Below are positions 8,129-41,593 of a stretch of 64,000 nucleotides of DNA, in pieces; position 1 is the stretch's first letter, and each line of letters begins with the position of its first letter. The position numbers were made by a program, and so were the translations under genes. The DNA comes from Octopus vulgaris (taxonomy: Eukaryota), in contig OX597819.1 in NCBI GenBank assembly GCA_951406725.2, forward strand, positions 127,658,001-127,722,000, read 5' to 3'. Under the pieces are notes generated by a model, which was not told the origin of the DNA, made no database searches, and saw only the letters and a program-made list of their open reading frames with translations.

Positions 8129-8132
<4 letters not shown>

Positions 8133-8484
8133 TGCAGCGTGGAAGGTGTTTGTAAGCCATTTAAGAAACACACAAAAGCCGTTCGATTCACTTCAACATT
8201 TAAGTTTAATTTGTCAAAATATTTTCGGCGTTTTAAGACCGCGACCTGTTCACTGACAAAAATCCGTGCTGCATCTAAGCTTAGATGCAGCACGGATTTT
8301 TGTCAGTGAACAGGTCGCAGATTTTAGCGACGAAAATATTTTGACAAATTAAACTTAAATGTTGAAGTGAATCGAACGGCTTTTGTGTGTTTCTTAAATG
8401 GCTTACAAACACCTTCAACGCTGCAATTGTTTTCGTTTCAGCACACGATCTCAGATCAAATCACTTGCTATGCGAGTACATCTC

Positions 8485-8488
<4 letters not shown>
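8129..8488 (+). mobile_element. Fold-back element family F1: ~150 bp inverted arms plus ~59 bp unique tail, inserted in (TA)n
   Basis: 8129-8280 is the reverse complement of 8281-8429 (centre TCTAAGCTTAGA); homologous copies at 36543-36879 and 41242-41593. Confidence 0.9.
8299..8348 (+). ncRNA. Hammerhead-like motif with G3-C8 core (GTGAACA)
   Basis: TTTGTCA-GTGAACA-G-GTCGC(loop)GCGAC-GAAA-ATAT-TT-TGACAAA. Confidence 0.6.
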
Positions 8489-8522
<34 letters not shown>

Positions 8523-8526
<4 letters not shown>

Positions 8527-8745
8527 TGGGGAAAAAAAAACTTTTATCAATTCAAAATGAACAATTAAATTATACCATCTAGAAAATTACATATAATAGA
8601 AATATCAAAATTAAAATTACAATAATATACCGATGATTAAGTAAATTGCAATATAATAATAAAAACGTATATAATTGGTAGAATAACGACACGTGTTTCG
8701 TGGCTATATCTTATAGGAGTAGTAAAATCTCTTCGATATAAATAT
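8523..8745 (-). mobile_element. Truncated PLE-type terminal fragment with the 3' half of a hammerhead
   Basis: Minus strand GCCAC-GAAA-CACGTG-TC-GTTA at 8684-8704; lies between TA arrays; 5' core strand not seen. Confidence 0.45.
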
Positions 8746-8869
8746 ACTTCAAAATTTTTCTAATTTTTATATATATATATATATATATATTATATTGTAT
8801 GAAATTTGATTTAGTATTTCTAAATTGAATTTTTCTCTGTAAGTTAGGATTAATATTCCCTCAAATATG

Positions 8870-8902
<33 letters not shown>

Positions 8903-9603
8903 ATGTGTGTGTGTGTGTGTATGTATATGTATATATATATAACACATATATATTATCTATCAAAATCTACATATATATGTGTGTGTGTGTATGTGTGTGT
9001 GTGTCTGTGCGTGTTTGTGTGTGTGTGTGTGTGTGTAAATGTATGTATGTGTATCTCCATGTATATAAATAGTATGCAGATAGTTTGATAGATATTTACT
9101 CATAGAATAGAAAATTTAAAGGTTAAGAAAAGTTCACACGTTCTAAACTCCATAGGCCTCCCGCAGAATTCCTATGACAAATGCATATTTTCCTCTGTGT
9201 ATGTGTGTGCGTGTGTGTGTGCGTACGTGCGTGTGTGTACATACAGTATTATGTATGTATGTATGTATTTATGTATGTATGTATGTATGTATGTATGTAT
9301 TTATGTATGTATACCTACTGGGTGTATATGAAACGTATTAATAAAACAACAAAATATTTACAAAGTGCATGGAAACCAGATGAGCCTCCAGAATATGATA
9401 TTTATCTTTTATGATATTTATAAATCTTCTGTTTGCTTCCTGGTGTGTTGCGGTATATATTCAGGATGGAAACATTTGCTATGCTATGTAACATCATAAA
9501 CAGCACGCCGAAATCGCAACAGTCGATATTTCTTTACCCTCACAATCATTATAGGACTTCATTATAGGATGATCAATAAGATATCAATATTACTTGAATT
9601 TTA

Positions 9604-10464
9604 AGGCGGCGAGCTGGCAGAAACGTTAGCACGCCGGGCGAAATGCTTAGCAGCAATTCGTCTGCCGTTACATTCTGAGTTCAAATTCCGCCGAGGTCGA
9701 TTTTGCCTTTCATTCTTTCGGGGTCGATATATTAAGTACAAGTTACGCACTGAGGTCGATGTAATCGACTTAATCCGTTTGTCTGTCCTTGTTTGTCCCC
9801 TCTATGTTTAGCCCCTTGTGGGTAGTAAAGAAATAAGAAACGGTAGCATGCCAGCCGAAACGCTTAGCGATATTTCGTCCAACTTCGCCTTTCATCCTTT
9901 CGGGGTCGATAAATTAAGTACCAGTTACGCACTGGGCTCGATGTAATCGACTTAATACCTATGTATGTCCTTATTTGTTCCCTCTATGTTTAGCCCCTCG
10001 TGGGTAATGAAGAAATAGGAATTTTGTCTGCCGGTGCGTTCTGATTTCAAATTCCGCCGAGGTTGACATTGCCTTTCATCCTTTCGGGGTCGATTAAATA
10101 TATACCAGTTACGTACTGGGGTCGATATAATCGACTTAATCTATTTGTCTGTCATTGTTTGTCCCCTCTGTGTGTAGTCCCTTATGGGCAGTGAAGAAAT
10201 AGGTATTTCGTCTGTCTTTACGTTCTGAGTTTGTCCCCTCTGTGTTTAGCCCCGTGTGTGTAGTAAAGAAATGAGAATCGTTAGCACACCATGCAAAATG
10301 CTTAGGGGCATTTCTTCTGTCTTTACGTTCTGAGTTCAAATTCCGCTGAGGTCAAATTCATCCCTTCGGGGTCCTTAGATTAAGTACCAGTTGCGTACTG
10401 GGGTCGATCTAATCGACTGGCCTCCTCATCCAAAATTTCGGGCCTTGTGCCTAGAGCAGAAACG
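9604..10464 (+). mobile_element. SINE family A multimer (head plus about four body units plus alternative tail) inserted as one unit
   Basis: Repeated body units; 16-bp TSD AATATTACTTGAATTT at 9586-9601 and 10465-10480. Confidence 0.9.
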
Positions 10465-10513
10465 AATATTACTTGAATTTCGCAATTAATTGCAGAACCA
10501 GCCTTTTGGAATT

Positions 10514-10553
<40 letters not shown>

Positions 10554-11113
10554 CAGACAGACAGACAGACAGACAGCGACAGAGAGAGAGAGAGAGGGAG
10601 AGAAAGAGAGAGAGAGTAGATGATAAATAACTATCAGGATATAGTCGCTGATGCAGTTTCAATTTCTTCACTTGTCTTTCTAACGTCAAGTAAAAGTTTG
10701 TTCTTACTTGTATGAAACTAGTATTACATTGAACTAGCGAGGGATCCTTTGCACGATCACCCTAATTGTTAGAAATAACAAACAAATCTCCTTCATATCG
10801 TGCCCAATGATTTAACAATGGAAGGAAAGATTGCACAACGAAAAATTTAGAAATGGTTTAAAAGGGAAATTAACAGACATTGAAGTAAGTTATACATTCT
10901 CTGGTGACGAGTCGGTTCTAATAATCAATATTTTACGTATAAAATAACAAATTTTATCTTTCGCTAGTTTCAGCGTTGTCTATTTGAGTTGCTCGATCAA
11001 AGGATCACAATACCAATTGAATTACAATGTGGGCAGTTGACTATTTAGGATGTACTAGTGCTATGAACGTAGTCATCAACCGGAATCAGTGAGAACCGGC
11101 TTATATTACGGCT

Positions 11114-11280
11114 AGGTTTTTCGTCTGTCTTTACGGTCTGAGTTCAAATTCCGTCTAGGTCTACTTTGCCTTTCTTCCTTTCGGGGTCGATAAATTAAGT
11201 ACCAGTTACGCACAGGGGTCGATGTAATTGACTTAATCCGTTTGTCCCCTCTATGTTTAGCCCCTTGTGGGCAATAAAGA
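11114..11280 (+). mobile_element. SINE family A, headless body unit
   Basis: Homology; starts at the internal repeat junction (GGT..TTCGTCTG). Confidence 0.8.
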
Positions 11281-11464
11281 TGTAAAGGCTTCAAGATATT
11301 TTCTGAAAATATAATTCTTTTTTCGCAAGACAACAGTCGACTCGAGGTTATATTAAAATCCAGTTACAAAATGTAGTTGTTAAGCCTTCGGCCATGCTTG
11401 GTCTTTCGAACTATTCATTCAGACATACATGTATTTGGCCGTTGCGCTATAAATATTAAGCGTA

Positions 11465-11880
11465 AGGCGTCGAGCTGGCAGAAACGTTTGCGCGCCGGGC
11501 GAAATGCTTAGCGGTAGTTCGTCTGCCGCTACGTTCTGAGTTCAAATTCCGCCGAGGTCGGCTTTGCCTTTCATCCTTTCGGGGTCGATTAAATAAGTAC
11601 CAGTTAGGCACTGTGGTCGATATAGTCGACTTAATCTGTTTGTCCGTCCTTGTTTGTCCCCTCTGTGTGTAGCCCCTTGTGGGTAGTAAAGAAATAGGTA
11701 TTTCGTCTGCCGCTACGTTCTGAGTTCAAATTCCACCGAGGTCGACTTTGCCTTTCATCCTTTCGGGGTCGATTAAATAAGTACCAGTTACGCACTGGGG
11801 TCGATGTAATCGACTTAATCCGTGTGCTTGTCCTTGTTTGTCCTCTCTGTGTTTAGCCCCTTGTGGGTAGTAAAGAAATA
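11465..11880 (+). mobile_element. SINE family A dimer (184-bp body twice)
   Basis: Units start at 11513 and 11697; TSD ATATTAAGCGTA at 11453-11464 and 11888-11899. Confidence 0.9.
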
Positions 11881-12721
11881 TATATATATATTAAGCGTAT
11901 TGCCAAATACACAGCTATACTTCTACTGAGGATTTGAGCCCAAGACCTACTGGCATGTAGTGGAAAACAGGATCCACTCGACTATTTCACCTCTTTTTGT
12001 TATCTGATGTCATTTTTTTTTTTTTTTCAGAATCCCCTACGAAGAAAACCCGCCGTTAGGAATTGCTTGTCTTGCTGTGCGAGTCTCTCTCTCTCTCTCT
12101 ACAGCAACTCATAGTGTGCTGATACATTAAAGGTCGACGTCATATTTATGAGTTATCTCGGAATCATTGACTAATGTTTTCACAACATTTTCACAACTGT
12201 TGTAAACTGCAATCATGAAGAGGTTCAATGAAAAGCGGTGGAGGATGAAACGTGTCTGACTTCAATTCAGTGTGTGGTTTCTTTGCTGTTCCTGTTGAAA
12301 ACATAACCTCATGTGGTTTCGTTGAACTTTCATAAATAAATAAAGCCTCCTCCTGCATGCTGAAATGCAAATAGCACAAATTTATACGTGCAATACATAC
12401 ATATGTTGGTGATAGCTGTGTAACTCCTGTCTACGTCTTTGTTGTACATCAGGCGGTTGGTCCCTTGTAGAAAGTCTCAACGTTTCGTGCGTGGTTTTGA
12501 GTTAAATTAAACACATCTAAACCAATATAGTGATTACACTCAATTAAACATCTTAATAATATGAGCATGCAAATATGCTGAAAGAAAAAAATAAAGAATA
12601 TTATATATTGATATTTTTTCTTAATATTTGTTTCAAATACCTCGAGTTCCACAACAGTGATTTCGATTTAAATTGCCTATATCTAAGTATTATTAAATAT
12701 CACTTAATTAGTGAACAACAC

Positions 12722-12723
<2 letters not shown>

Positions 12724-12752
<29 letters not shown>

Positions 12753-12856
12753 TGTATGTATGTATGTATGTATGTATGTATGTATGTATTTATATATGTA
12801 TGTATTTATGTATTTATGTATGTATGTATATATTTATGTATGTATGTATGTATATA

Positions 12857-12889
<33 letters not shown>

Positions 12890-13145
12890 ATATGTATGTA
12901 TGTATATATATATATGTATGTATTTATTCATGTATGTATGTATGTATATATGTATGTATTTATGTATGTATTTATGTATGTATGTATTCATGTATGTGTA
13001 TATCTACACATGTATGCATATAGGCATGTATGAATATATGTGTACATACACAAATACTTATGTGTGCATATTTGTCTATATCTATGAATACTTATATACT
13101 ATTTGTAAATCAATAACTATATATGCATATATACATATATATCTG

Positions 13146-13190
<45 letters not shown>

Positions 13191-13207
13191 GTGTGTGTAT
13201 GTGTGCG

Positions 13208-13260
<53 letters not shown>
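12724..13260. repeat. (TATG)n/(TA)n microsatellite tract
   Basis: Direct reading. Confidence 0.95.
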
Positions 13261-13264
<4 letters not shown>

Positions 13265-13341
13265 GTTAGGTTTCCCGTCCGGCCCATAACCTCATATATA
13301 TATATAAATATATCAAATTATTTTATTTGTTCGTTGATGTT

Positions 13342-13358
13342 GAAACCTAGGTACACAG
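13342..13358 (+). ncRNA. 3' half of a hammerhead motif in a short element between TA arrays
   Basis: GAAA-CCTAGG-TA-CACAG with palindromic stem III; no upstream CTGANGA found. Confidence 0.35.
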
Positions 13359-13514
13359 CTAACTATCGGAAATGCTTTTATTTTTCATCCCCTTCGAAAT
13401 TACTCTTGTTCGTGGTTTGGGCTTTGACTGCTCTTTTTAGTATGCAAGGTTTCCTGTTAAGTTCACCTCTTTTCTATATAGAAATGTACACTAATTATAC
13501 ACACACACACACAC

Positions 13515-13556
<42 letters not shown>

Positions 13557-14127
13557 GTATATACATTTATAGTTAAATTTGTGCTTCACAATAAATATTA
13601 CAATTTAACAAAGGACACTCAATATGAAATTGAAAATCAGATTTAATAGAAGCTTAATGACCATATCTATGTCATTAAAATTAAAGGAGATTGTCGATAT
13701 CCAGCATATCAGACAGCGTAAATATATATGGTTCGGAACTACACTTTCCCAAACGTCCGAGCTTTCCCATCTAGTGTGAAAACCGTGTACTGTTATTGCG
13801 TCCCCAAATTCCATCCCCTCCTCACCGTGGTGGGGACGCTGGCAACGGGTAGTGTCAGATCTTTGCCACCTAAGGCGGATTGGTCTGACACCGAGTGGTA
13901 TTAGGGCCACAACCCGGCAGACGGGGCTCTGGTGAAAACCCTCGGAGTGTCTGTTTCGGCAACCGGCGGCTCCTCGGTCGTTCTGTCCCTGCGCCTGCGG
14001 ACAATCTGCGGCAAACAGGATGTCTCTACATGCGGGATTGTTGGGGACCGCTTGTGAAATCCACGTATTCCCACGAAACTTCTTCCGGTAGAAGAAGCCG
14101 ACACAACCCGCCCAGAGTGAATGTCGC

Positions 14128-14360
14128 CACAAGTACAAGTAAGTACTGTTATAGCTTGGGATTCAAGGGCTCACAGTTATTTAATACCTCGTCAAAACAT
14201 CTGAGAGATCTCCATGCAGTCGGTGCAGATATTTTCAAGAAATAACTTGATCTTATGTTGCTCAACTTTCCACATGAACCTAAAACACGGCAAGAAACTC
14301 AAAAAAGGGCAGCCATATCGAACTTAGTCCTTCGCCAAAAACCACTGAAAAAGGGATAAT
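14128..14360 (+). mobile_element. L2-group (Crack/Daphne-like) LINE 3' fragment
   Basis: SLGFKGSQLFN..HLRDL..FKK*LDLML..PHEP..RAAISN resembles the G.RLFN.LP..FK..LD..PDEP..AA.SNS C-terminus of this group. Confidence 0.6.
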
Positions 14361-14532
14361 GCTGGCGTTACTCCAGCATGGCTGTAGACTTTGTGCTGAA
14401 ATGCATCAACTGTTGAACTTACAACTGTTTCTTAAAATCCATAAAGGTTAATAAAAACATTACAGTTAAGACTACTAATGTGATTGTAAACGAAAATATT
14501 TGTAGAATTTGCAACTGTGATTCTTACAATGT

Positions 14533-14790
14533 GGAGGCGCGTGGCTTAGTAGTTAGGGTGTCAGCACCATGATCGTAAGATTGTGGTTTCGATTCCTGGA
14601 CCGGGCGACGCGTTGTATTCTTGAGCAAAACGCTTCATTTCACGTTGCTCCAGTCCAATCAGCTGGCAAAAATGAGTAACGCTGCGATGGACTGACGTCC
14701 CGTCCAGCTGGGAAACACATGCATCATAGAAACCGGGAAACCGGGCCCATGAGTCTGGCTAGGCTTTAAAAAGGGCGCATTTATTTTCTG
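14533..14790 (+). mobile_element. tRNA-derived SINE family C (CORE-like centre)
   Basis: A-box TGGCTTAGTAG, B-box GTTTCGATTCC, TTGAGCAAAACGCTT core-like segment, GCGATGGACTGACGTCCCGTCCAG. Confidence 0.75.
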
Positions 14791-14944
14791 ACATTTTCAT
14801 TCTTACGATATAAATTTGTAAATATCACGTCTCTAACATATAAATATAACGCAAACTTGCCGGATTTCGAGGCATATGAACTAACAAGCAATGGCACCGA
14901 ACAACATCATACAGCATAAATAAAAATAAAATAGTGTGAATGTA

Positions 14945-15190
14945 CTTAAGTAGGTGTTATTGACGTAAGCCCCTTGGCTCTGGAGCCCTTCACGGATTTA
15001 TCATGTTGACTGAATAATTTAGAAACACGATCCCTTCCATCAACTCTTCTCATTACATTGAAACTCCTGCAATGTGCATTTAGTGCACCATTAAAGATAT
15101 TGTAGTCTTGAATTAGCTGCGTGTCATATCCTGGGCAAGATTGCTTACACGTTGCTAGGACACACTCCAAAGTTGCTCAGTCTTATACAG
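14945..15190 (-). mobile_element. RLE-type (HERO-like) LINE fragment
   Basis: Highly similar to 21540-21710; LECVLATCK is the His/Cys zinc-knuckle region. Confidence 0.55.
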
Positions 15191-15708
15191 ATAACCCTAC
15201 AAATGAAGTGATAAATGATTGACGCGATACAAATACCGCAACTCAGCTAAAATTCAACGCATTGATAAAATATACAGGTTACATAGAGAACAAGTTCTTC
15301 GAGCCTCTTTGATTCCGTTGGTCCTGCCAACGATAAAAAGAGAAGCAATATATGCCAATAGCATAGAAGCTATCCAGAAGATAGCCTCATTTATTAGAAA
15401 CGTTGGGGACTTGGAAACTTTGTACTCATGGAGAAATATGAAAGAATATAATAAGACATGACTAGGACATAATCATGTTTCGAAATGAATAAAATCGACA
15501 GACACACATCGACAGACATACAAACTCACGCGTATATACATGCGATGGGTTCTTTCTAAGACCGAAACAGACTGCACAATTTAGCCTTCGACGTTGAATA
15601 ACAAACTCTTGTTTACTTTGGATCGTACCGAGCAAATTTCCGTTCATGTGTGTATGTGTATGTGTGTGTGCGTGTGTGCGTGCGTGTGTGTGTGTGCGTG
15701 TGTGTGTG

Positions 15709-15755
<47 letters not shown>

Positions 15756-15819
15756 TATACTACAAAGTAAGATAGGGGTTATGGGTGTAACCCACTATGG
15801 GATATCATTTATCCAATAC

Positions 15820-16050
15820 TAGCAGTGGTACCCGGCGTTGCCCGGTTGCATTCAATTGAAGAATTAAACTTTTCTGTTATATTTTCTGTAATGAACTGGA
15901 ATATCTATATTTCGAATTTCATCAAAATTGCAGATGAGGGTTATTTCCCTCTTTAGACACCCTAAAAAATTTGTAATCGTGCCACATGTATCCCATACTA
16001 TTGATTTTTATGCGCATATTCCAAAATTCCAGTTTTATTGAACCTGTTAA
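15820..16050 (-). mobile_element. Helitron 3' end fragment
   Basis: Minus strand ends in the hairpin CCGGGCAACGCCGGG followed by CTAG-3'. Confidence 0.55.
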
Positions 16051-16998
16051 AAAGATTTTGCTCCTGAAAAATGAAGGTCATGGAACTCTAAAATGTGAGA
16101 GTTAAGGCCCCTGTTGGGGGTGGGCATCTTAATATCAACCAGAGAAGTTGAATTGTTGAAAGGCTTTTTAACTTGGGTATTATATCTATTGTTTGAATTT
16201 CTTTCAAATAGGAAATATATGTTCACTGGGTTTGTAAAAGAGAGCAAAGCTACAGGAAACCAAAAAACAAATGATCACAATAAGTAATCAGCTACAGTAC
16301 CCTAGTCGTTACCACTCCCAAAGTAGTATTCCTCACCATCCAGGTGACAGGCACAGCCGTAAGATGCATTACGAAGCTATAGCAATTGGAAGAGCGTGAC
16401 CCAACTGAAATCAACATTAAAAACTGTGTGACGTGAGGGCTTAGGAGAAATTAAAGTGTCACATCTGGAGTTTGCAAATGACCACTATACTGATACGTAA
16501 CTGGACAGAATGAATTTAAAATCTATAAATGTCTTTGAATAACCAGTCACTTATCTGGGAAGGCCTTGAAATCAATGTTACCATCTGGGGACTATGTGTG
16601 ACCGTATGTATATGTATGTATATATGTAAGTGTATGTGTGTGTCTTTGTCTCTGTGTTTCGCCCTCATCACTGCTGCTCAACTGCTGTTCATTTATTTAC
16701 ATCCACATAAATTACTGGTTTTACAAGAACAAACTAATCGAATAAGTACTAGGCTTATCAGCATAAGTTCATTAAAATATTGGGTGCAAAAGATTACAAC
16801 ATAGATATACATTCTCAAGAAAATTTTAAAGATAGTTTTCAGAAGGAATTATTGAAAAGTTCAGTGGAATATTGGTATTGTATTAATGAACTTGTTAAAC
16901 TTTTTTATGTCCTTAACATGTTCTTGTTACCAAAGACTGTATATATGTATTGTAGCATTTTGTGACAACCATTAATTAACACATCAAACTTTTATACG

Positions 16999-17043
16999 TT
17001 ACTTTTGACAATCTTTTTCCAAAGAGTGAAACCGGTAAAGTAA
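16999..17043 (+). ncRNA. Hammerhead-like motif with U3-A8 core (TTGACAA)
   Basis: TTACTT-TTGACAA-TCTTT(TTCC)AAAGA-GT-GAAA-CCGG-TA-AAGTAA; about 40 bp upstream of a (TA)n array. Confidence 0.55.
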
Positions 17044-17082
17044 ATAAACATCTTTTAAAATTGCATTTTCACACTTTCTTTC

Positions 17083-17153
<71 letters not shown>

Positions 17154-17470
17154 AATACAAATAAACAGAAACATTAAACTCAAATGGACGCACAATACAC
17201 ATACTTACATACATGCATGCATACATACACACACACACTTATACATACATACTCATATATAGTGAAAGCGATATGACGAGAAGACCCAAGAAGTACTTCC
17301 TTAAACAATCACATGAAGAAGCATGTTTTATTCCTTGGAAGTATGACAATGATTGCACAACACTTCGATAATGTGCTAAAGGTGTAAAAATGTCTCGAAA
17401 CTATTGTAGTGATCTTAAATGAAAAAATGGCCTTCATTACATTTTCTATTATCTGTCTGTCTGTCTGTCT

Positions 17471-17525
<55 letters not shown>

Positions 17526-17772
17526 TATTTGTCAGAAGTTCATATATGCAAGAAAAGAACACACTAAAGCATTAGAGTAGTAACATCTATTTTTTAGAAA
17601 GTTAAAAGTTATAGCCAGCCACAGGGTGATGATTGGTTTTACACTTATAGGCAACCATAAGCAGTATAAGCAACTTACCAGACTCAGTCGCATGTACCGC
17701 TAAGAGTTTGTAGGTGCGAAAGCAATGATCATTCTATGACTTGCCATAACTTAAATTTCTAAAATATATATT

Positions 17773-18308
17773 CAGTTATGCCTCGATATACGAGTTAATT
17801 TTTACCCGGACACCGCTCGTAAAGCGAAAGCTCATAAAGCAGAGTAATAATTTGCCATATTAACAATGCTCTAAATCGTAATTCGTTCCCAGAAAAAGTA
17901 TTTTACCAATAAAATTTAGAATACTCGTAAATAAATGGCAATAAAACAACAGTAGAATGTAAAGAATGTTTTATCTAAAGTAAAAAGAATGTCAAGATCA
18001 TTTGTAATATAAAAATTATTATTAAAATAACCGTTTTCTGAATCATTTTCACCCGCACTCACCATCACTTGCAAATGCGATCGTCATTCACAAGCCCTCG
18101 TAGACGGAATTGTAGATCTATTTGTTAATAAACAAGTCTAGAATTGTTTGCTTAGAAGCTTTTGTTTTTCGCTCTCCATAAATGTCTCTAACTTGTAGAA
18201 GTATTTGCTATGATAGGACAAACTTTTGCACTTCGTTCAAAATTTGGATCGTGTGCTTGCAATGTAAAACTCTCGCAAAATGGGTCCTCATAAAGTGAGA
18301 TATTACTG
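17773..18308. mobile_element. pogo/Tigger-like MITE
   Basis: Imperfect TIRs CAGTTATGCCTCGATATACGAG and CTCATAAAGTGAGATATTACTG, followed by TA. Confidence 0.6.
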
Positions 18309-31177: not shown

Positions 31178-31227
<50 letters not shown>

Positions 31228-31430
31228 CTGTGTCTGTATATGTGTTTGTGTGTTTGTGTTTGTCACCCACCATCGCTTGACAACCGTGGTTGGGCAAAAG
31301 TACCCGATAAAGGAAGCACAAGGCTTACGAAGAATAAGTCCTGGCGTCGATTTGTTCGACTAAAGGCGGTGCTCCAGCATGGTCGCAGTCAAATGACTAA
31401 AACGAATAAAAGAACAAAATAATAAAAGAA
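31004..31430 (+). mobile_element. SINE family B, full length, with internal (TG)n
   Basis: A-box TGGCTGTGTGG, B-box-like GTTCAATCT, GGGCAAGTGTCTT core, internal (TG)n, A-rich tail. Confidence 0.9.
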
Positions 31431-31460
31431 TATATACATATATATATATATATGTATGTA

Positions 31461-31496
<36 letters not shown>

Positions 31497-31574
31497 TGCA
31501 TGTATTCGTATTTCGATATCTATATCTATATGTCTATCTTTCTCTCTCTCCCTCTCTCTGCCTCTCTCTCTCTC

Positions 31575-31619
<45 letters not shown>

Positions 31620-32516
31620 TGTTCGCGCGCGCGTGTCTGTGTCGCTGTATAGTTGTAGTTAGTTATGCGCCATAAAGGTACTATGATGATACGCAGACAC
31701 GTGCACAAATCATACACACGCACGCACACACGCACACTCACACACACACATTCAAACGCGGAAAGGCACTAACAAATAGACCTATACTACCTCACAGTTG
31801 TTCATACTTATATTCACACACATTCATTCATCAACATTCGTCTGTAGCAGACGGACACCCAGGGTTCTTGATTTGTATTTATCAAAACAAGAATCCTAAG
31901 AGATGAGTAGTTTTCGTTAACTGTGTGACGTCTTAGCAAACCCCATGAGGAAAATAATGATTTGAAATGTGGTGGGGTGAATTCTTTTTCATTTTGTTCA
32001 TTCAAAACAACAGAAAAGCCCTGCCTTAATAACATTCATGCTCCCATCAAAATATTGTCTCACAATCTATGTTTACGTTTCATGGCGACTACTCATCTTT
32101 AACACAACCAAGACTACTTTTCTAAGCAATACGTCTTTGCTAATTCGCTGGCTCTCAAGAAAGCCCCGCGAGAAAAAACTAATATCAGAATAGTACTTTA
32201 GTAATTGATATAATATACCAACCTATCCCATAAATATTTAACAAACTGAGAATCTTCTGCACGTAGCACGGACAACCTTTTTCTAGAAGCGGGCCGCATG
32301 AAGCATCACTGAACATTATGCGGGCCACATTACTAAAACAATTCATGGTAAATTTTTGCTAGGCGTGCATTCAGAAATTCCCACAGTTTGATCATAATTG
32401 TTTTACATCTCTGGAGGAGATGTCTTCCTGGGGCTACAAGCTACAGTAGCATCAACCCTTTAAGGGTTAGCCACATTTGGGTGGCAAATATACTTCACGA
32501 TACATATATATATATA

Positions 32517-32891
32517 CTAGCAGTATCGCCCGGCGTTGCTCGGGTTTGTAAGGGAAATAACTATATAAGCATTTTTAGAGATGTAAAGTATAATAACCAT
32601 CTCAATATGGCTAACCAGAAAGGGGGAGGGGTGTTACTGTAGCTTTTTACGTTCTGAGATTTAATAATACATTTTTAGAGAGTTACTTCCCTTATATATG
32701 CCAAAAATGCATTAAAAATGGGGAAAAAATTTATGGTAAATTTTTTTTTAAATCGTAGACTCATCGTAGACGCGCGTTAATACCCAGAAGGGCTCGATAT
32801 GAATCACGACTATAAGATACCCGGTTTTGGTTAAACTACACCGCAAAATGTGGGAGTAGTTAGGAATCTAAATCGTAGGAGACAGACAGCA
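32517..32891 (-). mobile_element. Non-autonomous Helitron (shared 3' end, different body)
   Basis: CTAGCAGTATCGCCCGGCGTTGCTCGGG end is identical to the 39172 and 57441 copies; the interior diverges. Confidence 0.8.
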
Positions 32892-34164
32892 CTTTTTGTC
32901 CTTGTTTGTCTCCTCTATGTTTAACCCCTTGTGGGTAGTAAAGAAATATATATTATAAGGTATTGTATTGAATACAGATTTGTGTATGGTTCAGAATACC
33001 GTATCGTATGTAGACCCCTAGTTATAGACTTGTATTTTCTTTAACTAGTTTACTTATGTATTGTGCGATATTGTGTTACCATGGCACTTTGCTTGTAAAT
33101 ACAGTCATTCGTTGAGAATGTGTAGTTTTTGTATGTCCTGTGTAGGAGAAAGAATCGTGGAATTTACAACACCCTTATTTACACATGAATTTATGCATTT
33201 CATTAGTCATAGGATGTGTATTCATCTGCTTCCAGAATGTGGGTGATCAGGAGATTTGTTTAATTTTCGTAATTTCCTAATATATTAATTTTCTAGATTC
33301 CTATTACGTGCAATACTTGCTCTGCTCTATTTATTGAGCTCGCCGATAATGCGTTCATTTATTTTAAAGCTGGGATAAATTTGTTTAATAAAATATATTT
33401 AATGTGCCATTCGTTTGTCGTTATTGATAGTTGTGTCTGTCGTTTACGTAAAATATGCCTCTAAATTACACAATAATTTAGTTTAATAATTCATTGAAAT
33501 ATCAGTTAAGTATGTCTGCTTTTATTTCGTTTAGTTGTTATTAATTTATTAATTACTTTATGAAGTGCTGTTTTTACGGAAGAGAATATAAAGGCCATGT
33601 AAAGGCTATTTTAGTTTCATTTTTTAGAAGAACCTTTCATGATTCAAAGGTCGAGCAAATAAAGTACCAAAAAAGTAACGAAATTTATTGCCCCACACCC
33701 ACGCTTTCTCTCGGTTTGAGTAGCACATGGGTGTAGTCACCGTTTTCTTCCAAGATGACTGCATCAGTTATAGAGAATGTGATCGCCATTCTTAAATTAA
33801 AAAAAAGTAGGAAAACTACTGCTGATGATGTTGATGCCGACGATGAGAATGATAATATAAACCGATGACAACAGAATGTAAACCGCAATAAGTAAATAAG
33901 GCATTAAACCGTGTTCGTCTACGTTCAAATTTAGATGATGTCATTTTTCCATTTCATTCTCCTGGACTCAATGAAATGAGTTTTAGTTCTTTGTGTTGTT
34001 GTTTATCATACCTCTGGTAGAAGGTAATCCAGCCATAACCATCTCCTCTCGTGATATTTTTCAGATAATGTATCTTTCATTTTTAAAGTCGCTATGGTTT
34101 CATAAGATGGAGTTTGGTACCAATTTCTAGCAGATCGAAAGCCTTCGCAGATCCTCTCTTTTGC

Positions 34165-34528
34165 TCTTTTATTCTTTTACTTGTTTCAGTCATTTGACTG
34201 TGGCCATGCTGGAGCACCGCCTTTAGTCGAGCAAATCTATCCCAGGACTTATTCTTTGTAAGCCCAGTACTTATTCTATCGGTCTCTTTTGCCGAACCGC
34301 TAAGTTACGGGGACGTAAACACACCAGTATCGGTTGTCAAGCGATGTTGGGGGTGGGAGACAAACACAGACACACAAACATATACACACATTTACATATA
34401 TATATGTAGGCTTTGGTCGGCCCGAGGCTATAGTAGAAGACACTTGCCCAAGGTGCCACGTAGTGGGACTGAACCCGCAACCATGTGGTTCGTAAGCATG
34501 CTACTTACCATACATCCACTCCTATGCC
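34165..34528 (-). mobile_element. SINE family B
   Basis: Homology to 31004-31430. Confidence 0.9.
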
Positions 34529-34599
34529 TCTCTAAATATATGTAATAAAGAGGGATTAATCCAGTTGATTGTGTGACTCATAATCTGGTTTTATGGTAA

Positions 34600-34830
34600 A
34601 AAGCAATATGTTTATTTCTGCTATAGACAAAACGTCTGAAATTTGTTGGGAAGGGGCCTGTCAGTTCATCGACCCTAGTGCTTGACTGGTGCTTATTTTA
34701 TAAACCCTACCAAAAAAATTAAAGGCAAAGTCAAACTCAACAAAAATTGAACCCAGAAAGCAAAGAGTCGGAAGAAATGCCGCTGAGTAGGTTGTCCGAT
34801 ACTCTAACGAATCTGCCAGGTCGTAGACTT
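34600..34830 (-). mobile_element. SINE family A, highly diverged copy
   Basis: Degenerate match to head and body. Confidence 0.6.
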
Positions 34831-35451
34831 AATATAAATTATAATTAATAAACGAAAAACAAGATTATTTAGGCAACATAATATTTACAAATTATTTCTA
34901 GTAATTTTATGGGATACACTATATATATATATATATATATATATCTAAAAAAAATTTCTTTTTTTCTTCTGTGTGTCATATTCTTTCGTGTTAGCTATTT
35001 ATAAAATGACAAAGAAAAATGTAACCTTTCTTGAGGTCTTATCGCAATAGGTTATTAAGCAATACGGTTGACCAAGGAAAACATGATAAATGACTTAAAA
35101 TTGGTCAGGTCACAGAATATTTAGCCTTATTGAAAGACTGTTGTAAATTTTACTGGAGACTGAAAAGAATATTTATATCTATATATATATATAACTATAT
35201 TTATAAGAATATATATATATATATATATATATTACTGCCTCTTGTGTTGTGATAACATACTTATTTGTGGCCAAAATATTTTGCTTCTGCGAAAAATTAA
35301 AGGAAATCGTTGGAAGAAAGCAACAGACTGTATGTTATAACTTATTTGTTATCGGAGAATTGAATAGAAGCTTCACGCAGGTCTTTTATCGACTTTTCAT
35401 GCGAAATATGATACGCAGAATTAAAGCGGTAGTAAAAGAAGCTAATACACA

Positions 35452-35489
<38 letters not shown>

Positions 35490-35710
35490 TGTGCGTGTGT
35501 GTGAGAGAGAGAGAGAGAGAAAGAGAGTGTGTTTGTGTGTATGTAAGTGCGTGTTTGCCTGTGTGTGTGTGTGTAAATGCACACATACGCACACATATAT
35601 TAAGACAAAGAGAGACAGATAGTGAAGGAGGCAGAGAGAGAGAGTGTGTGTGTATGTAAGTGCGCGTTTGCCTGTATGTGTGTGTTTGTGTATGTGTGTG
35701 CGTGTGTGTA

Positions 35711-35764
<54 letters not shown>

Positions 35765-35937
35765 TACATGCACACATACGCACAAATATATTAAGACAAA
35801 GAGAGATAGATAGTGAGGAAGAGATTGGGAGAGATAGAAAGAGGGAGAAAGAGATAGACAGATAGAGAGAGGTGGGGAGAGAGGGGAGAGAGAGAGGGGG
35901 TAGAAAGATGTAAAAGAATTGGTATGTCACTGAAAAT

Positions 35938-36055
35938 ATGAAGAAGAAGAAGAAGAAGAAGAAGAAGAAGAAGAAGAAGAAGAAGAAGAAGAAGAAAGAA
36001 GAAGAAGAAGAAGAAGAAGAAGAAGAAGAAGAAGAAGAAGAAGAAGAAGAAGAAA
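35938..36055. repeat. (GAA)n microsatellite
   Basis: Direct reading. Confidence 0.95.
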
Positions 36056-36542
36056 GTAGACAAAATTTCTCAACTGAAACTGCCATAGTTTTGTCTTCGT
36101 ATCAACTCCGTTCGATATCGTAAAATATTCGCTGTTTCCGGCTTCGTGTCTCAATGTCTTGGCCATTAATTCAAAACATTGTTCTAGAACTTCTTGCAAG
36201 GTGAATATTAGGATGTCCAAAAATATCACCGAAATATCTAGAGGAAACATTTAAGTGCATCTCATGCAATACTGATAAGTGTATGGTTGTCGTGCTTGAA
36301 TTCATGCTTTACTTTTGTAATCATGTATCATGGATCACAAGCTACATTTCAGGACTTTCGGATCGCAGCGTTACCGCATAAAAAGCAGAGATTTTGTTTT
36401 TTCTATTTTTATTGAGAGTTAAAATACTGCCATTTTACTGCATGCCGAACTGTAGTGCTAAAAGTCAATTGTTCGTATTGCGAAATGAATGAGTTGTGTT
36501 CATGGCAAAGACACTTAACTTATAGGTGAAATATTATATTTT

Positions 36543-36879
36543 ACGGAGATGTACTTGCATAGCGAGTTACTTGATCTGAGATCGTGTGCTGGAACGAAAT
36601 CAATTGAAGCGTGGAAGGTGTTTATAAGCCATTTAAGAAACACACAAAATCCGTTATATTCACTTCAACATTTAAATTTAATTTGACAAAATGTTTTCGT
36701 CGCTTTGAGACTGCGACCTGTTCACTGACAAAGATGCAGCACGGAATTTTGTCAGTGAACAGGTCGCAGTCTCAAAGCGACAAAAATATTTTGACAAATT
36801 AAATTTAAATGTTGAAGTGAATCTAACGGATTTTGTGTGTTTCTTAAATGGCTTATAAACACCTTCCACGCTTCAATTG
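36543..36879 (-). mobile_element. Fold-back element family F1, copy 2 (opposite orientation)
   Basis: Tail 36543-36600, arms 36601-36733 and 36747-36879; carries the G3-C8 hammerhead-like motif. Confidence 0.9.
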
Positions 36880-37392
36880 TTCTGTTTTATATGTTTCTCT
36901 ACAAATGCATGTATTCTTTTTTTATAGGGTTTTCAAAGGTATTTCGCTTGGATTACATGAAAACGAAATTTATTGTACATAACAGTATAGTACTTGACTC
37001 TGTCACATTTCAATACTTATTATAACAATCCTGATCTTATGATGAAACATTCATAAGCAGTTCCACAGTCGGAACTCAAAGGAACACACTACTTCAAGAG
37101 CAAATAACCTCAGAATATAATCAGGGAGCATTCACCTTGAATGATGAATTGCTACAATGTAGTGAGATGGTCACTAAAAAACATGGTTGGAGTGCATTGA
37201 AAAGTATTGCATCCAGTGAGATAGATATTTAATGTAAACTGTATTATAATGAGAGCCACTAATAATACGTGCTTAGGCAGATTTTTATAACGTACTTTGT
37301 GTCTCAACGGCAACAAAGCTATTAGTAGCTTTTATTTTAATACGGTGTAATACAGTGTGGCGCTCGATTAGAAATAATTAAAAAAATACACA

Positions 37393-38252
37393 TTAGGTAC
37401 AGGACAACAGCAACGAGCTAAAACACGGAAACACACGAGACAAAATACCAAAAAATACACAATATGAACAGGAAATCAACAACGAGTGAAAAATACGTAA
37501 ACATAGATCGAGAGACAAGAACGGGACAAAATACCAAAAGTCTAACTTTTCCTCAGTTGTCGACTGTTTCTTACTCCCAATTTCGAGCATACAGAAAAAT
37601 TTAAAGTATAAAATTTGAGGAGAGTTAGCGCTTCGAAGGAACAAACAGCAACAAAGAGGATGTACAGTGTAAACAATCGACGAAGACAAACATTAAGAGC
37701 CGTTAGGCCAAGCCGCATTGTAAGGGGTAACGCCTGGGAGAAATTTTGAAAGGATATAGAATAAACAGAAGAAAAGAAAATAGAAGAAAAAGCATTCCTG
37801 GAGGCGAGGGAAATGCCGTCCAGCTAGAGGGACGCCACGTCTGGAAAAGACAGAGGCGAGAGAAATGGCCTCAATCAAGTGTGAACGAACAGGCAGAGGG
37901 AAAGGGGGACAAGAGAGAGTATGAAGAAAAGAAACAAAGGAAGTGTGGAGAAGGGAGAAGGAACGAAAGGTAGTAGGGAGTGGAAGAAAGACAGACAGGT
38001 GACAGCAAAGAAAGAGGGGGAGAAACGGAAAATAAAGAGGATTATAATGGGCCAGAGAGAAAGGAAGAAAACAGAGTGTGGCGTCGCAGAAATTATAAAT
38101 AAATGTAAGAACTTATAGGGGAAAAGGCTGCATGGCGTTCGATTATAAATAAATAAAAGATACACATTAAGTACAGGACATCACCAACGAGCGAAAAACA
38201 CGTAAACTCACGAAAGATAAGTACAGGACAAAATACCAAAAAATACACAATA
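37393..38252 (-). mobile_element. Non-coding element with diverged direct terminal repeats (pLTR-like)
   Basis: 37393-37462 resembles 38167-38252 (TTA.GTACAGGACA..CAACGAGC..GACAAAATACCAAAAAATACACAATA). Confidence 0.5.
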
Positions 38253-38259
38253 AAAACAT

Positions 38260-38610
38260 ACCGTTCCATCCTTGAGGAAAGTTCTGTCGAGGAAAACCAC
38301 CACAGAGAACCCCCGTGGGGAGCACACTCACCAACTACACCATGCTCCAGGGACTATGTAGTTTACAAGGTAGCCTGCAATCAATGTGGAGCATCCTTCA
38401 TAGGGAGCACCCCTAGAAAACTACACATCCGTATAAAGAAGCACATGCAAACAGACACTTCGAAGAAGAAACACCTCAAGAAGTGCCAAACCGGGAACGT
38501 CAAGGTTTTCATGAAGACCACTCAAAGCAACAGGAGCAATATCAGGATTAAGGAAACCCTCCTGATAAACAAATTGAAACCGGTCATTAACAACAGGAAG
38601 AAATTACACG
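38260..38610 (+). pseudogene. Penelope-like GIY-YIG endonuclease fragment (third type)
   Basis: Frame of ORF 38445 extended upstream: CSRDYVVYKVACNQCGASFIGSTPRKLHIRIKKH..H..C..IKETLLINKLKPVINNR. Confidence 0.8.
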
Positions 38611-39171
38611 AAGCAGACTACCGTCCGCGCATGTCACCTTCTCAACATATGAAGCTATTAGTAGCACTTAAAGAGATGTATTGTGCCCTTTAATAGGCCT
38701 TCTGTGAAATTATCATATAGCTGCTATCTCAATTTGAAGAGTATCATTACACAAGGTCAATACTAAGAGCCTAAATCCAGTTGTAAGTATTGCGACCCAT
38801 GTGTTATTAAATTTGTCGTATATGACGCTGAAATTACTGCATCGCTAAATGATAATGCAATAACTGGGAAGACCTATATTGGATTATGTGAAGGAGAATT
38901 TAAAAATCGCTACGCCAATGGCATATCCTCTTTCGGACTTAAGCTACTAAGTTGAGTTGCCACGTATGGAGTTTGGAAGCAAACGAAACGCGCGTATAAT
39001 TAATGTGTAAAATAATTGAGAAATCCACACCTTATGTGAACGTATCAAATAAATGTAGGCTATGTCTAGCTGAAAGAGCTCCGATCCTTTTCAGATCCAA
39101 TACCTCTAATTCTCAACTGAACTCTCGGCTGCAATTTTCAGCGATTGCAGACATGTGTAAAATATACTATA

Positions 39172-39554
39172 CTAGCAGTATCGCCCGGCGTTGCTCGGGT
39201 TTGTAAGGGAAATAACTATAGAGCATTTTTAGAGAGTTATAGCCAAAAAATAGCCAAAAAATGGGAAAAAAATGATGGTAAATTTTTTTGAGAGTTAAAA
39301 AGGTCGAGTTGCGTCCCATAGACAGTCTGTGGTTTGTGTTTCTGATTCTCGACCCCATGTCGAATTTATCGATTTTTTTCAGAACTGGGGCAACTTTTCA
39401 AAATTTTCGCTGCGTTAATTTTGAATTATGACATTGGGCTATGTGTGTGTCAAGTTTCATCCGAAACGGTTGAAAGCCGTGGTCAGGGTGAGGGTACAAC
39501 CTAACAGACACACAGACACGCAGACAGACAAACTGCCGTTTATATAGAGAGAGA
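39172..39554 (-). mobile_element. Non-autonomous Helitron nested in the PLE
   Basis: 5'-TC start and hairpin+CTAG end on the minus strand, A|T site; near-identical to 57441-57809. Confidence 0.9.
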
Positions 39555-39696
39555 TACTTTGAAGAATTGGGAAATTCCCCCTATATCTGATTAACTTGTT
39601 GCTCTCTTTCAGCCCTATAATTTAAGGCCTACATACTGCTTTCTCAGCTTTTTTGCGTTTCTTCACTTTTTTTTTAGTTCGTTATGATATGTGGTT

Positions 39697-39753
39697 CGTG
39701 CCTGATGAATACGTCTGAGATATTTCTCAACATATGAAACTATGTATTATGTC
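39697..39753 (+). ncRNA. Hammerhead ribozyme in PLE 3' UTR, degenerate stem I
   Basis: CTGATGA-ATACGTCTGAGA(TATT)TCTCAACATAT-GAAAC-TAT-GTA. Confidence 0.6.
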
Positions 39754-39831
39754 CTTTAAATAAATAATATTTATCTCTCACAAGATGGAGTGCTTTTTTT
39801 GTTGACCTTTCAATCACAGAACAGTACATTA

Positions 39832-39882
<51 letters not shown>

Positions 39883-40514
39883 GTGCATGCATACATACTT
39901 ACATACATACATATTTACATACATGCATGCATACATACGCACATTCATACAAATATCCATATACACATACACATATACAGTAAAGTAATTCTAATGCTGA
40001 TTCTGTAAAGGAAGGGATTAAAAATTAGCCAGGAAGTATAAATGGAGAATCGAAAATGTTATTCCATATAAACTGGTGGAGGAAATATGACAATTAACAG
40101 AGTTGAACAGAGTGACTTTTAAATTCATTTGATAGGAAGTGACGTTAATGAAATATTGTAATATATTTGAAAACAACTGCAACTGAAGAACAGGAAAGGT
40201 ACCGAATTATAATTCTAAAATAAATACTAGTTGTAACAGGAAATCAGAATATTTCAAAAACATAATTGAATCAGCAATGTTTTCGTTCCCGTCCATTATA
40301 ATTATAGCGGATTGTACTGCAGCAAAAGAAAGTAGCGTTGACATTTTTACAATTCTTCAAAGCGATTATGTGTATTTGCATATATGCGTCTGTGTGTGTA
40401 TGCATACTTACATATATACACAAGTACTTATATACATACATGTGTGTATGTGTGTGTATATATGTGTGTGTATGCATACTTATATATATACACAAATACT
40501 TATATACATACATG

Positions 40515-40665
40515 TCCCCGTCACTTAGCGGTTCGGCAAAAGAGACCGATAGAATAAGTACTGGGCTTACAAAGAATAAGTTCCGGGGTCGATTTGCTCG
40601 ACTAAAGGCGGTGCTCCAGCATGGCCGCAGTCAACTGACTGAAACAAGTAAAAGAGTAAAAGAGT
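40515..40665 (+). mobile_element. SINE family B, 3' half
   Basis: Homology to family B tail. Confidence 0.85.
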
Positions 40666-40971
40666 ATACATGTGTGTAGGTGTGTATATATGTGTGCGTA
40701 TGCATGTACATATATATGTATATTTGTGGGGGCACGCGGCCCAGTGGTGCGTTGTCTTCTTGTACAAGCCACATCACCTCACGCTACTCTGCAGCACGTT
40801 TACACCTGACGTGTGGTACACAGTGTACCTTGTTCAGACAAAGATCGATTTGATGGAATGAGTGGCCTAACAAACAGTATAACGTTTTGATCAATATACA
40901 CGAAAGATTTATGTCAGTCGTTTTGCAAGAATTTGTGGAGCCATCTTTCACGGAATACGAGAGACTGCCAT

Positions 40972-41057
<86 letters not shown>

Positions 41058-41149
41058 CGTGTGTGTCCGTGTGCCTGTGCGTCTGTGTACACACTCACAC
41101 ACACACACACATACTCACACATACACACACATACACACACACATATATA

Positions 41150-41240
<91 letters not shown>

Positions 41241-41241
41241 T

Positions 41242-41593
41242 AAACAATTGCAGCGTGGAAGGTTTTTTATAAGCCATTTAAGAAACACACAAAAACCGTT
41301 AGATTCACTTCAACATTTAAATTTAATTTGTCAAAATATTTTCGTCGGCCCTCACAGATATACATATATATGTACACACACACACATGTGTAGCACGAAG
41401 TTTTGTCAGTGAACAGGTCGCGGTCTCAAAGCGACGAAAATATTTTGACAAATTAAATTTAAATGTTGAAGTGAATCTAACGGTTTTTTGTGTGTTTCTT
41501 AAATGGTTTATAAACACCTTCCACGCTGCAATTGTTTTCGTTCCAGCACACGTTCTCAGATCAAGTCACTCGCTATGCAAGTACATCTCCGTA
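41242..41593 (+). mobile_element. Fold-back element family F1, copy 3 (short arm and microsatellite spacer)
   Basis: Left arm 41242-41347, spacer, sense copy 41391-41593; hammerhead-like motif at 41402-41452. Confidence 0.9.

What the first reader, a model, noticed from the sequence alone, without database searches (positions are those of the whole stretch)
8129..41593. Fold-back family F1 carries a hammerhead with a swapped C3-G8 pair (GUGAACA core)
Seen in three copies (8129, 36543, 41242): stem I TTTGTCA/TGACAAA, then GTGAACA in place of CTGANGA, one extra G, stem II GTCGC/GCGAC with a loop that varies between copies (AGATTTTA, AGTCTCAAA, GGTCTCAAA), GAAA, palindromic AATATT and a UUU cleavage triplet. 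Established: C3 and G8 form a tertiary Watson-Crick pair in the active hammerhead, so G3/C8 is exactly the compensatory swap. Inference: a natural non-canonical ribozyme that standard CUGANGA searches would miss. The extra G after A9 and the UUU triplet may make it slow or dimer-dependent.
Basis: partly seen in the sequence, partly recalled or inferred. Interest (0 to 1): 0.8.

Follow-up and report, generated by a model that had tools for sequence, protein, structure and literature searches.

The report
Swapped-core hammerhead in octopus Penelope retroelement
The three fold-back repeats are short stubs of an abundant octopus jumping gene whose RNA begins with a hammerhead (self-cutting-type) motif with two paired core letters swapped; related elements keep that pair in other letter combinations, so the motif is likely still under selection, but it likely cuts slowly at best and cutting has not been shown.

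Summary
The motif is in the sequence and is not chance. It is intact in copies 1 and 3; both arms of copy 2 are damaged. F1 is not a stand-alone element. It is the pseudo-LTR of a Penelope-like retrotransposon (RT plus GIY-YIG ORF; 29 of 30 ORF loci end in F1), with 6,323 exact copies of the stem-core 20-mer in an Octopus genome. Relatives carry a hammerhead at the same place with C3-G8 or U3-A8, and a related octopus family has near-identical stems and a core differing only at positions 3 and 8. G3-C8 is therefore a real compensatory swap. The extra G, palindromic stem III and U17 are ordinary for these motifs. G3-C8 is known from lab mutants (partial rescue); my searches found no natural case in print. 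Against efficient cutting: 98 of 100 young copies run through the cut site, and over half stop at one point carrying a cap-like extra G. Fold-back arms are always age-matched but sometimes come from different subfamilies (copy 1 included), which points to two RNA templates per insertion. The scan noted this swapped motif before, on other pieces of this genome. New variant of a known kind; interest 0.45.

The parts
8129..8279 (-). Copy 1, inverted arm: pLTR fragment ending at the first fixed 3' end; carries a decayed mirror hammerhead (8260-8210) with the 9-nt loop type
8280..8429 (+). Copy 1, direct arm: pLTR fragment from the inferred transcription start (8283) through the hammerhead and the first codons of the ORF (ATG at 8398)
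   Evidence: 96% identical to the pLTRs of the tandem full-length copy L066
8299..8348 (+). Intact G3-C8 type I minimal hammerhead: stem I 8299-8305/8342-8348, core 8306-8312, extra G 8313, stem II 8314-8318/8327-8331, GAA 8332-8334, palindromic stem III 8335-8340, U17 8341; predicted cut 8341/8342; 8-nt loop type
8430..8489 (+). One-sided tail (about 60 nt) between the two fixed 3' ends, followed by (TA)n
   Evidence: tail defined in PMC11167929 and PMC8557442
36543..36600 (-). Copy 2 tail (element in the opposite orientation)
36601..36732 (-). Copy 2 long arm; hammerhead 36732-36682 with G3-C8 core but damaged stem III and stem I
36732..36879 (+). Copy 2 short arm; hammerhead 36748-36798 with G12 changed to A (36782), predicted inactive
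41245..41348 (-). Copy 3 inverted arm, truncated inside the hammerhead (3' half only); right boundary approximate
41402..41452 (+). Copy 3 intact G3-C8 hammerhead (G3 41409, U17 41445), older subfamily with 9-nt loop
41392..41592 (+). Copy 3 direct arm with tail (41535-41592), followed by (TA)n
   Evidence: 89% identical to the L066 pLTR

Best explanation
F1 is the short pseudo-LTR stub of an endonuclease-bearing Penelope-like retrotransposon, and the motif inside it is that element's minimal type I hammerhead with the 3-8 core pair swapped to G3-C8, which likely still cuts, but slowly and only as a dimer or with help from the element's protein. Shown: F1 ends the RT plus GIY-YIG element and also precedes its ORF; relatives keep a Watson-Crick pair at 3-8 in other letters; stubs have one fixed 5' limit and two fixed 3' ends. 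Inferred: the RNA starts with a cap about 22 nt upstream of G3, reverse transcription starts inside the RNA at two sites about 146 and 207 nt from the cap and runs back to the cap, and two such cDNAs, one primed from each side of a nick in (TA)n, join head to head to give the fold-back with a one-sided tail. The copied RNA is mostly uncut. A cut would remove the capped 58-nt leader ahead of the start codon, so it would likely act as an off-switch for the mRNA rather than as a step of insertion. The window's own copies are inert fragments.
For: Link to the ORF: 29 of 30 loci found with ORF DNA have F1 745-1255 nt downstream on the sense strand, 25 with an intact motif. L066 reads pLTR-ORF-pLTR-tail with an inverted copy upstream, and the ORF opens at an ATG inside F1. 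L047 holds an open frame of at least 970 aa with GIY-YIG above Pfam cut-off. Covariation: the sister family (58% aa identity, tree support 99) has C3-G8. An older octopus family has majority core CTGAAGA with near-identical stems. Six of six scanner hits just 3' of related ORFs in metagenome contigs pair 3 with 8 (4 C-G, 2 U-A). Held-out model hits add C-G (L191, L209/L211, L215), U-A (L195) and a weak A-U (L208, E 0.045). In alignment A3 the 3-8 pair forms in 12 of 12 rows and the covariation score is 0.76 against 0.20 shuffled. Within F1, 4 of 5 common variants in the 50-nt motif fall in loop 2 and the fifth keeps a U-G pair. Stems I and II form with high predicted probability in RNA from the inferred start. 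C3G/G8C partly rescues a Penelope hammerhead that needs the element's protein (PMC11167929). Ends: 56 of 100 young arms start within a 10-nt zone; 13 of 15 starting exactly at its main base have a non-genomic G before it; 41 of 44 fold-backs have one short and one long 3' end.
Against: No cleavage was measured. No young arm of 100 starts at the cut site (1 nearby is a deletion edge), and 1 of 123 arms in the all-age sample does. The abundant young sister family has A9 changed to C, and about 73 of 100 listed G8 hits are G3-G8 mispairs, so these elements can spread with imperfect cores. Among F1 copies the core is no more conserved than the non-loop flanks. Two held-out hits show C3 with A8 (L223, L033). 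G3 is predicted to wobble-pair with U17 and extend stem I, an off-pathway fold. The computed dimer is barely more stable than two monomers (-25.6 against -25.0 kcal/mol). The extra G could in part come from microhomology with the inverted arm. Three of the 12 rows of A3 came from a pattern search that fixed C3 and G8, so they are not independent for that pair.
Confidence: 0.68

Rival explanations
1. The motif is a catalytically dead or near-dead descendant of the Penelope hammerhead. Its stems and palindrome are kept as a structural or RNA-pairing signal, and the 3-8 swap drifted through a mispaired stage because cutting no longer matters.
For: Templates are uncut. The sister family thrives with C9. 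G3-G8 copies are about ten times the background transversion rate (4 of 80 against 0.37%). Hammerhead mutants did not affect insertion in vitro (PMC11167929).
Against: The 3-8 pair is a tertiary pair of the active fold, yet it is restored in F1 and kept in nearly all relatives. U4, G5, A6, A9, G12, A13, A14, A15.1 and U16.1 are unchanged across F1 subfamilies. G3-G8 copies are scattered over subfamilies and share no private alleles, so no expanded mispaired lineage is shown.
Confidence: 0.24
2. The motif is an efficient ribozyme that cuts the element out of longer transcripts, and the cut (perhaps circularised) RNA is the normal template.
For: Proposed for Penelope hammerheads in general (PMC4209133 discussion). 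Nine of 123 arms start 3-9 nt past the cut site.
Against: Those nine are all in copies under 92% identity, where alignment edges slip and a common variant lies at the same spot; 0 of 100 young arms start there. Most stubs keep the 5' side of the cut and end at a cap-like G.
Confidence: 0.06
3. F1 is a fold-back DNA transposon (MITE) and the hammerhead likeness is chance.
For: Each window copy is a near-perfect palindrome of about 300 bp, and Rfam lists no hammerhead.
Against: Linked to an RT plus GIY-YIG ORF in 29 of 30 loci; 35 of 79 insertions are single arms; one-sided tail; hammerheads at the same place in relatives; no scanner hit in shuffles.
Confidence: 0.02

Closest known systems
Minimal type I hammerheads (min-HHRs) in the pLTRs of metazoan Penelope-like elements (Cervera and de la Pena 2014, PMC4209133; read: main text parts 1-2 of 4, supplement file 2 parts 1-2 of 3)
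   Same: Position in the pLTR, unpaired base between 9 and 10.1, G10.1-C11.1, palindromic stem III, frequent U17, many solo and opposite-strand copies, predicted dimer dependence.
   Different: Core is GUGAACA. The Fig. S3 rows as read have CUGA or UUGA cores and none has GUGA; the reported covariant is U3-A8. The extra base is G here and in all 12 rows of A3, against H in their consensus.
C3G/G8C double mutant hammerheads (PAc of Anolis, PMC11167929, read: passages and second half of main text; review PMC8495972, passage; G17 study PMC3884650, passages)
   Same: Same swapped pair; partial rescue of cleavage; PAc hammerhead needs the element's protein, uncut RNA is the main template, two internal RT start sites define the tail.
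   Different: Those are laboratory mutants; here the swap is the natural state of a family with thousands of copies. F1 has U17, whereas a G3-C8 mutant was reported less active with C17 than with G17 (data not shown there).
Natural U3-A8 hammerheads (Perreault et al. 2011, PMC3088659, passages)
   Same: Natural covariation of the 3-8 pair.
   Different: G3-C8 is not among the variants in the passages read.
EN+ Penelope-like elements with inverted pLTR and tail: Nematis/Neptune type (PMC8557442, passages, section 11, supplement part 2 and searches; Adineta Pen2a, PMC3846280, passages)
   Same: Single RT plus C-terminal GIY-YIG ORF, partial tandem and inverted pLTRs, ORF start inside the pLTR, one-sided tail, (TA)n targets, CX2-5CxxC linker, CCHH-like motif.
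   Different: Tail about 60 nt rather than 30-40; DKS in place of DKG; about 0.95 kb microsatellite-rich spacer before the 3' pLTR. Arms from different subfamilies do not fit the single-template self-priming model of PMC3846280.

Membership tests
Type I minimal hammerhead of Penelope-like elements | Invariant U4 G5 A6, A9, G12 A13 A14, A15.1-U16.1, H17 | tested here: met
   Window 8299-8348 and 41402-41452; majority state in 74-96 arms per position. Not met in copy 2.
Type I minimal hammerhead of Penelope-like elements | Watson-Crick pair between positions 3 and 8 | tested here: met
   G3-C8 in F1; C-G, U-A and a weak A-U case in relatives.
Canonical CUGANGA hammerhead (literal consensus) | C at 3 and G at 8 | tested here: not met
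   6,323 exact G3-C8 matches; 225 non-G3 matches, 11 of the 100 listed with C3 and none of these with G8.
Type I minimal hammerhead of Penelope-like elements | Stems I and II with G10.1-C11.1 and an unpaired base after A9 | tested here: met
   Predicted pairing near 1.0 for stem II and 0.7-1.0 for stem I; compensatory changes across families.
Type I minimal hammerhead of Penelope-like elements | Short palindromic stem III (dimer architecture) | tested here: met
   AATATT in F1; other palindromes in relatives. Dimer formation itself not shown; computed gain is marginal.
Type I minimal hammerhead of Penelope-like elements | Located in the pLTR of a Penelope-like element | tested here: met
Hammerhead ribozyme (functional sense) | Site-specific self-cleavage 3' of N17 | not testable with these tools
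   No assay. Public runs were contigs only and none is on record as RNA. Genomic 5' ends show no peak at the site.
EN+ Penelope-like retrotransposon | Single ORF with RT and C-terminal GIY-YIG endonuclease | tested here: met
   Open frame of at least 970 aa with YVDD and GIY-YIG PF01541 at 25.6 bits, cut-off 22.6. The RT is recognised by motif and by a homolog's source name; Pfam gave no RT hit.
EN+ Penelope-like retrotransposon | pLTRs in partial tandem and inverted arrangement, optional one-sided tail, AT-rich targets | tested here: met
Nematis/Neptune clades | CX2-5CxxC linker and CCHH motif in the endonuclease | tested here: met
   Linker C-x3-C-x2-C, then C, C, H, H residues, compared by eye with Fig. 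S2 rows; spacing resembles Nematis.
Nematis/Neptune clades | Placement in an RT tree with named reference elements | not tested
   The tree held no named reference sequences.
Hydra clade | DKT motif, CxCX5C linker, no CCHH, element under 3 kb | tested here: not met
   DKS, CX3CX2C, CCHH-like residues present, unit about 4.3 kb.
Non-LTR retrozyme | Non-coding tandem arrays with a hammerhead in each unit | tested here: not met
   F1 occurs as single or inverted stubs of a coding element.

The most novel reading that the evidence does not exclude
F1 carries the first natural, working G3-C8 hammerhead, and its palindromic stem III pairs two element RNAs in one particle. Both RNAs are copied at once from the two sides of a nick (hence fold-backs whose arms come from different but contemporary subfamilies), while the slow dimer-dependent cut removes the cap and switches the RNA off as a messenger. 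This would give Penelope hammerheads a defined job and explain the inverted-repeat-plus-tail insertions.
Probability: 0.2. Interest if true: 0.72.

Novelty: new variant of a known kind. Interest (0 to 1): 0.45.

Why it matters
It adds G3-C8 to the natural pairings of the hammerhead's tertiary core pair, so pattern searches fixed on CUGANGA or UUGANAA undercount these motifs (over 6,000 copies in this genome alone). A related octopus family whose core differs only at positions 3 and 8 offers a ready-made natural comparison. The function of Penelope hammerheads is open (PMC8557442, PMC11167929). The thousands of stubs give a fossil map of the RNA: a likely capped start, two RT start sites, uncut templates and signs of two RNAs per insertion. 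That makes the cutting and dimer questions directly testable. It is not a new ribozyme class, and lab mutants already predicted that the swap is tolerated.

Tried and rejected
Rfam scan: no hammerhead among the 150 of 281 matches shown. A G3-G8 subfamily as the evolutionary intermediate: G8 is enriched (4 of 80; about 73 of 100 listed) but the 12 copies examined fall in several subfamilies, share no private alleles, are not significantly older (p 0.19), and one fold-back has C8 in one arm and G8 in the other; left unexplained. An F1 subfamily with C3-G8: none among the 100 listed of 225. Intron reading of the 5' limit: the upstream sequence looks like a branch point and acceptor, but no shared upstream exon appears before the limit, only a single G; not excluded for other transcripts. 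Cleavage fossil: the 9 arms starting 3-9 nt past the site are all in old copies, absent in 100 young arms. RNA data: no RNA holder listed; laid contigs cannot show ends. In one search no other letter reached 5% at positions 3 or 8 in runs labelled as four organisms, which I take only as weak support for a shared core. Hydra-clade assignment, my first guess, was dropped on motifs. The RT fragment beside L023 is a different element, not the F1 partner. The ORF test and the tree used a wrong reading frame and were redone; the careful tree did not finish, so the quick tree is cited. The pattern was one base too long and caught only indel variants. Of 43 metagenome loci scanned (of 77 returned; the 34 left out matched at low identity), 37 gave no scanner hit, many because the contig stops before the pLTR. 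Literature: searches found no natural G3-C8 hammerhead. Lunse et al. 2017 (about 150,000 Penelope-linked variants, figure recalled) and Przybilski and Hammann 2007 were not available and may bear on novelty; supplement file 1 of PMC4209133 was not searched.
Full report
Observation. Each is a head-to-head inverted repeat of 280-300 bp with about 60 extra bases on one side; copies 1 and 3 sit in (TA)n. The motif is complete at 8299-8348 and 41402-41452. In copy 2 the + arm has lost G12 and the - arm has damaged stems I and III; the mirror arm of copy 1 has a damaged stem II. A relaxed scanner that left positions 3, 8 and 9 free scored the intact copies 22 and gave no hit of 14 or more in 10 shuffles. 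Rfam listed no hammerhead among the best 150 of 281 matches shown.

What F1 is. The genome is 2.8 Gb; a homolog named Octopus vulgaris matches it at 100%. It holds 6,323 exact copies of the stem I-core-stem II 20-mer and 12,489 of a downstream 20-mer. Walking upstream from one copy reached an RT plus GIY-YIG frame. Of 30 loci fetched with that ORF DNA, 29 have F1 745-1255 nt downstream on the sense strand and 25 keep the motif intact. L047 has an open frame of at least 970 aa with GIY-YIG above the Pfam cut-off. L066 reads inverted copy, pLTR, ORF, pLTR, tail, and its ORF starts at an ATG inside F1, matching window 8398. This is the layout described for endonuclease-bearing Penelope-like elements (PMC8557442; PMC3846280). 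The linker and endonuclease motifs fit Nematis/Neptune and not Hydra; no tree with named references was built.

Is the swap real? The sister family (58% aa identity, SH-aLRT 99 in a quick tree) has a motif at the same place with C3-G8, compensatory changes in stems I and II, and C at position 9 in most copies. An older octopus family, with ORF remnants in 6 of its 20 fetched loci, has the majority core CTGAAGA, the same four inner base pairs of stem I and a near-identical stem II, so its core differs from F1 only at 3 and 8. Among 43 related metagenome loci the scanner hit six, all just 3' of the ORF and all paired at 3-8: four C-G and two U-A. A seventh, U-A, was picked by eye. On a 12-row alignment the 3-8 pair forms in every row (7 C-G, 3 U-A, 2 G-C) and the covariation score is 0.76 against 0.20 shuffled and at most 0.21 slid; three rows were retrieved with a pattern fixing C3 and G8, and related rows are not independent. 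A model built from it found held-out motifs with C-G (L191, L209/L211, L215), U-A (L195), a weak A-U (L208), two C-A mispairs (L223, L033) and two broken cores (L200, L225). G3-C8 appeared only in F1, so it is likely the derived state; the tree is unrooted. Within F1, four of five common variants in the motif lie in loop 2 and the fifth keeps a wobble pair (p 0.001), but the core is not more conserved than the other flanks, and only 36 of 73 spanning arms are intact, as expected of decaying copies.

What is ordinary. PMC4209133 reports the unpaired base after A9, G10.1-C11.1, the palindromic stem III, low dimer-dependent activity and a natural U3-A8 form; many rows of its Fig. S3 have U17 and none that I read has a GUGA core. 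PMC3088659 also reports U3-A8. The C3G/G8C double mutant partly rescues cleavage, including in a Penelope hammerhead that needs its protein. Eight literature searches and the hammerhead table of PMC8557442 gave no natural G3-C8; Lunse et al. 2017 could not be read.

How the stubs arise. I mapped arm ends in copies chosen by downstream patterns. In 123 arms of all ages (first 100 matches on one contig, segmental duplicates not removed), 45 start in a 13-nt zone about 22 nt before G3 and 2 extend further; 3' ends fall at two sites about 60 nt apart; 41 of 44 fold-backs use one site each; 35 insertions are single arms. In 100 arms of the youngest subfamily (a few shared with the first set), 56 start in that zone, 17 extend upstream, 25 start between the zone and the cut region, none at the cut. 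Of 15 starting exactly at the main base, 13 have a G before it where the genome has T (p about 1e-6 against 0.25), and 12 of 20 in the all-age set. That a copied cap leaves an extra G is recalled knowledge; microhomology with the inverted arm may add to it. With internal RT initiation at two sites (PMC11167929), the simplest reading is that stubs are cDNAs from those sites back to the cap of uncut RNA. This step is inference.

Two templates. The two arms of a fold-back were never of different age class (0 of 28, 13.7 expected at random), so they arise together. Yet in the subfamily layer where two loop types coexist, 3 of 14 pairs have one of each (about 4 expected for two independent RNAs, none for one template), and three more such pairs are visible (L143, L159, L163). 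Window copy 1 is one of the three. The loop types differ by several changes and an indel, so later point mutation does not explain this; gene conversion from another locus is not excluded. It argues against single-template self-priming (PMC3846280) and for two RNAs per event. Whether the stem III palindrome pairs them is untested, and the computed dimer gain is marginal.

Does it cut? For: keeping a tertiary pair through three or four letter combinations is hard to explain without selection on the active fold, and the stems fold in the natural leader. Against: templates are uncut, G3 can wobble with U17, the C9 sister is abundant, and G3-G8 copies are unexpectedly common. Uncut templates and no read ends at the site were also found for a canonical, demonstrably active Penelope hammerhead, so the absence is not decisive. 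RNA runs were uninformative. The window's fold-backs would fold into one hairpin of -170 to -250 kcal/mol and bury the motif.

Verdict. Real motif, known host element, new natural core variant, activity likely low and unproven. The scan recorded the same swapped motif on two other pieces of this genome and two-armed insertions for other families. Interest 0.45.

Noticed in passing
window 16999-17043 (+): A second hammerhead-like motif with a U3-A8 core, extra U on both sides of stem II and a palindromic stem III, ending about 40 nt before (TA)n; resembles Hydra-clade motifs.
   Followed up: partly
window 44143-44097 (-), inside fold-back 43935-44541: Canonical CUGAUGA type I hammerhead with a full stem III, in another inverted-arm insertion.
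   Followed up: partly
window 41602-42062 and 50224-50529: Further fold-back insertions; the first has CTGATGA on both arms (41914 +, 41751 -) but no complete hammerhead by my scanner.
   Followed up: no
L111, L112, L114, L120 (sister family pLTR); A young sister Penelope family with open frames up to about 1,312 aa carries A9 changed to C in most of the listed copies of 4,428 matches; a minority of copies have A9. A second natural core variant worth assaying.
   Followed up: partly
G000 genome-wide: F1 copies with G3-G8 are roughly ten times more frequent than the background C-to-G rate and than C3-C8 copies, yet are scattered across subfamilies; unexplained.
   Followed up: partly
L191:4967-5015: Hammerhead of a related element with the 15.1-16.1 pair reversed to U-A and a palindromic stem III.
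   Followed up: no
L208:1506-1545: Weak model hit (E 0.045) 3' of a related ORF with A3-U8, the fourth Watson-Crick pairing.
   Followed up: no
window 6018-6366, 9581-10317, 11463-11996, 48223-48890, 54998-56228: A dispersed repeat family with about 184-nt spacing, in both orientations (D20 and I1-I15).
   Followed up: no
L066:8536-9480: The element's 0.95-kb spacer before the pLTR is packed with (TACA)n and (CA)n repeats, so long copies spread microsatellites; it ends in a branch-point and acceptor-like sequence right at the inferred start.
   Followed up: partly
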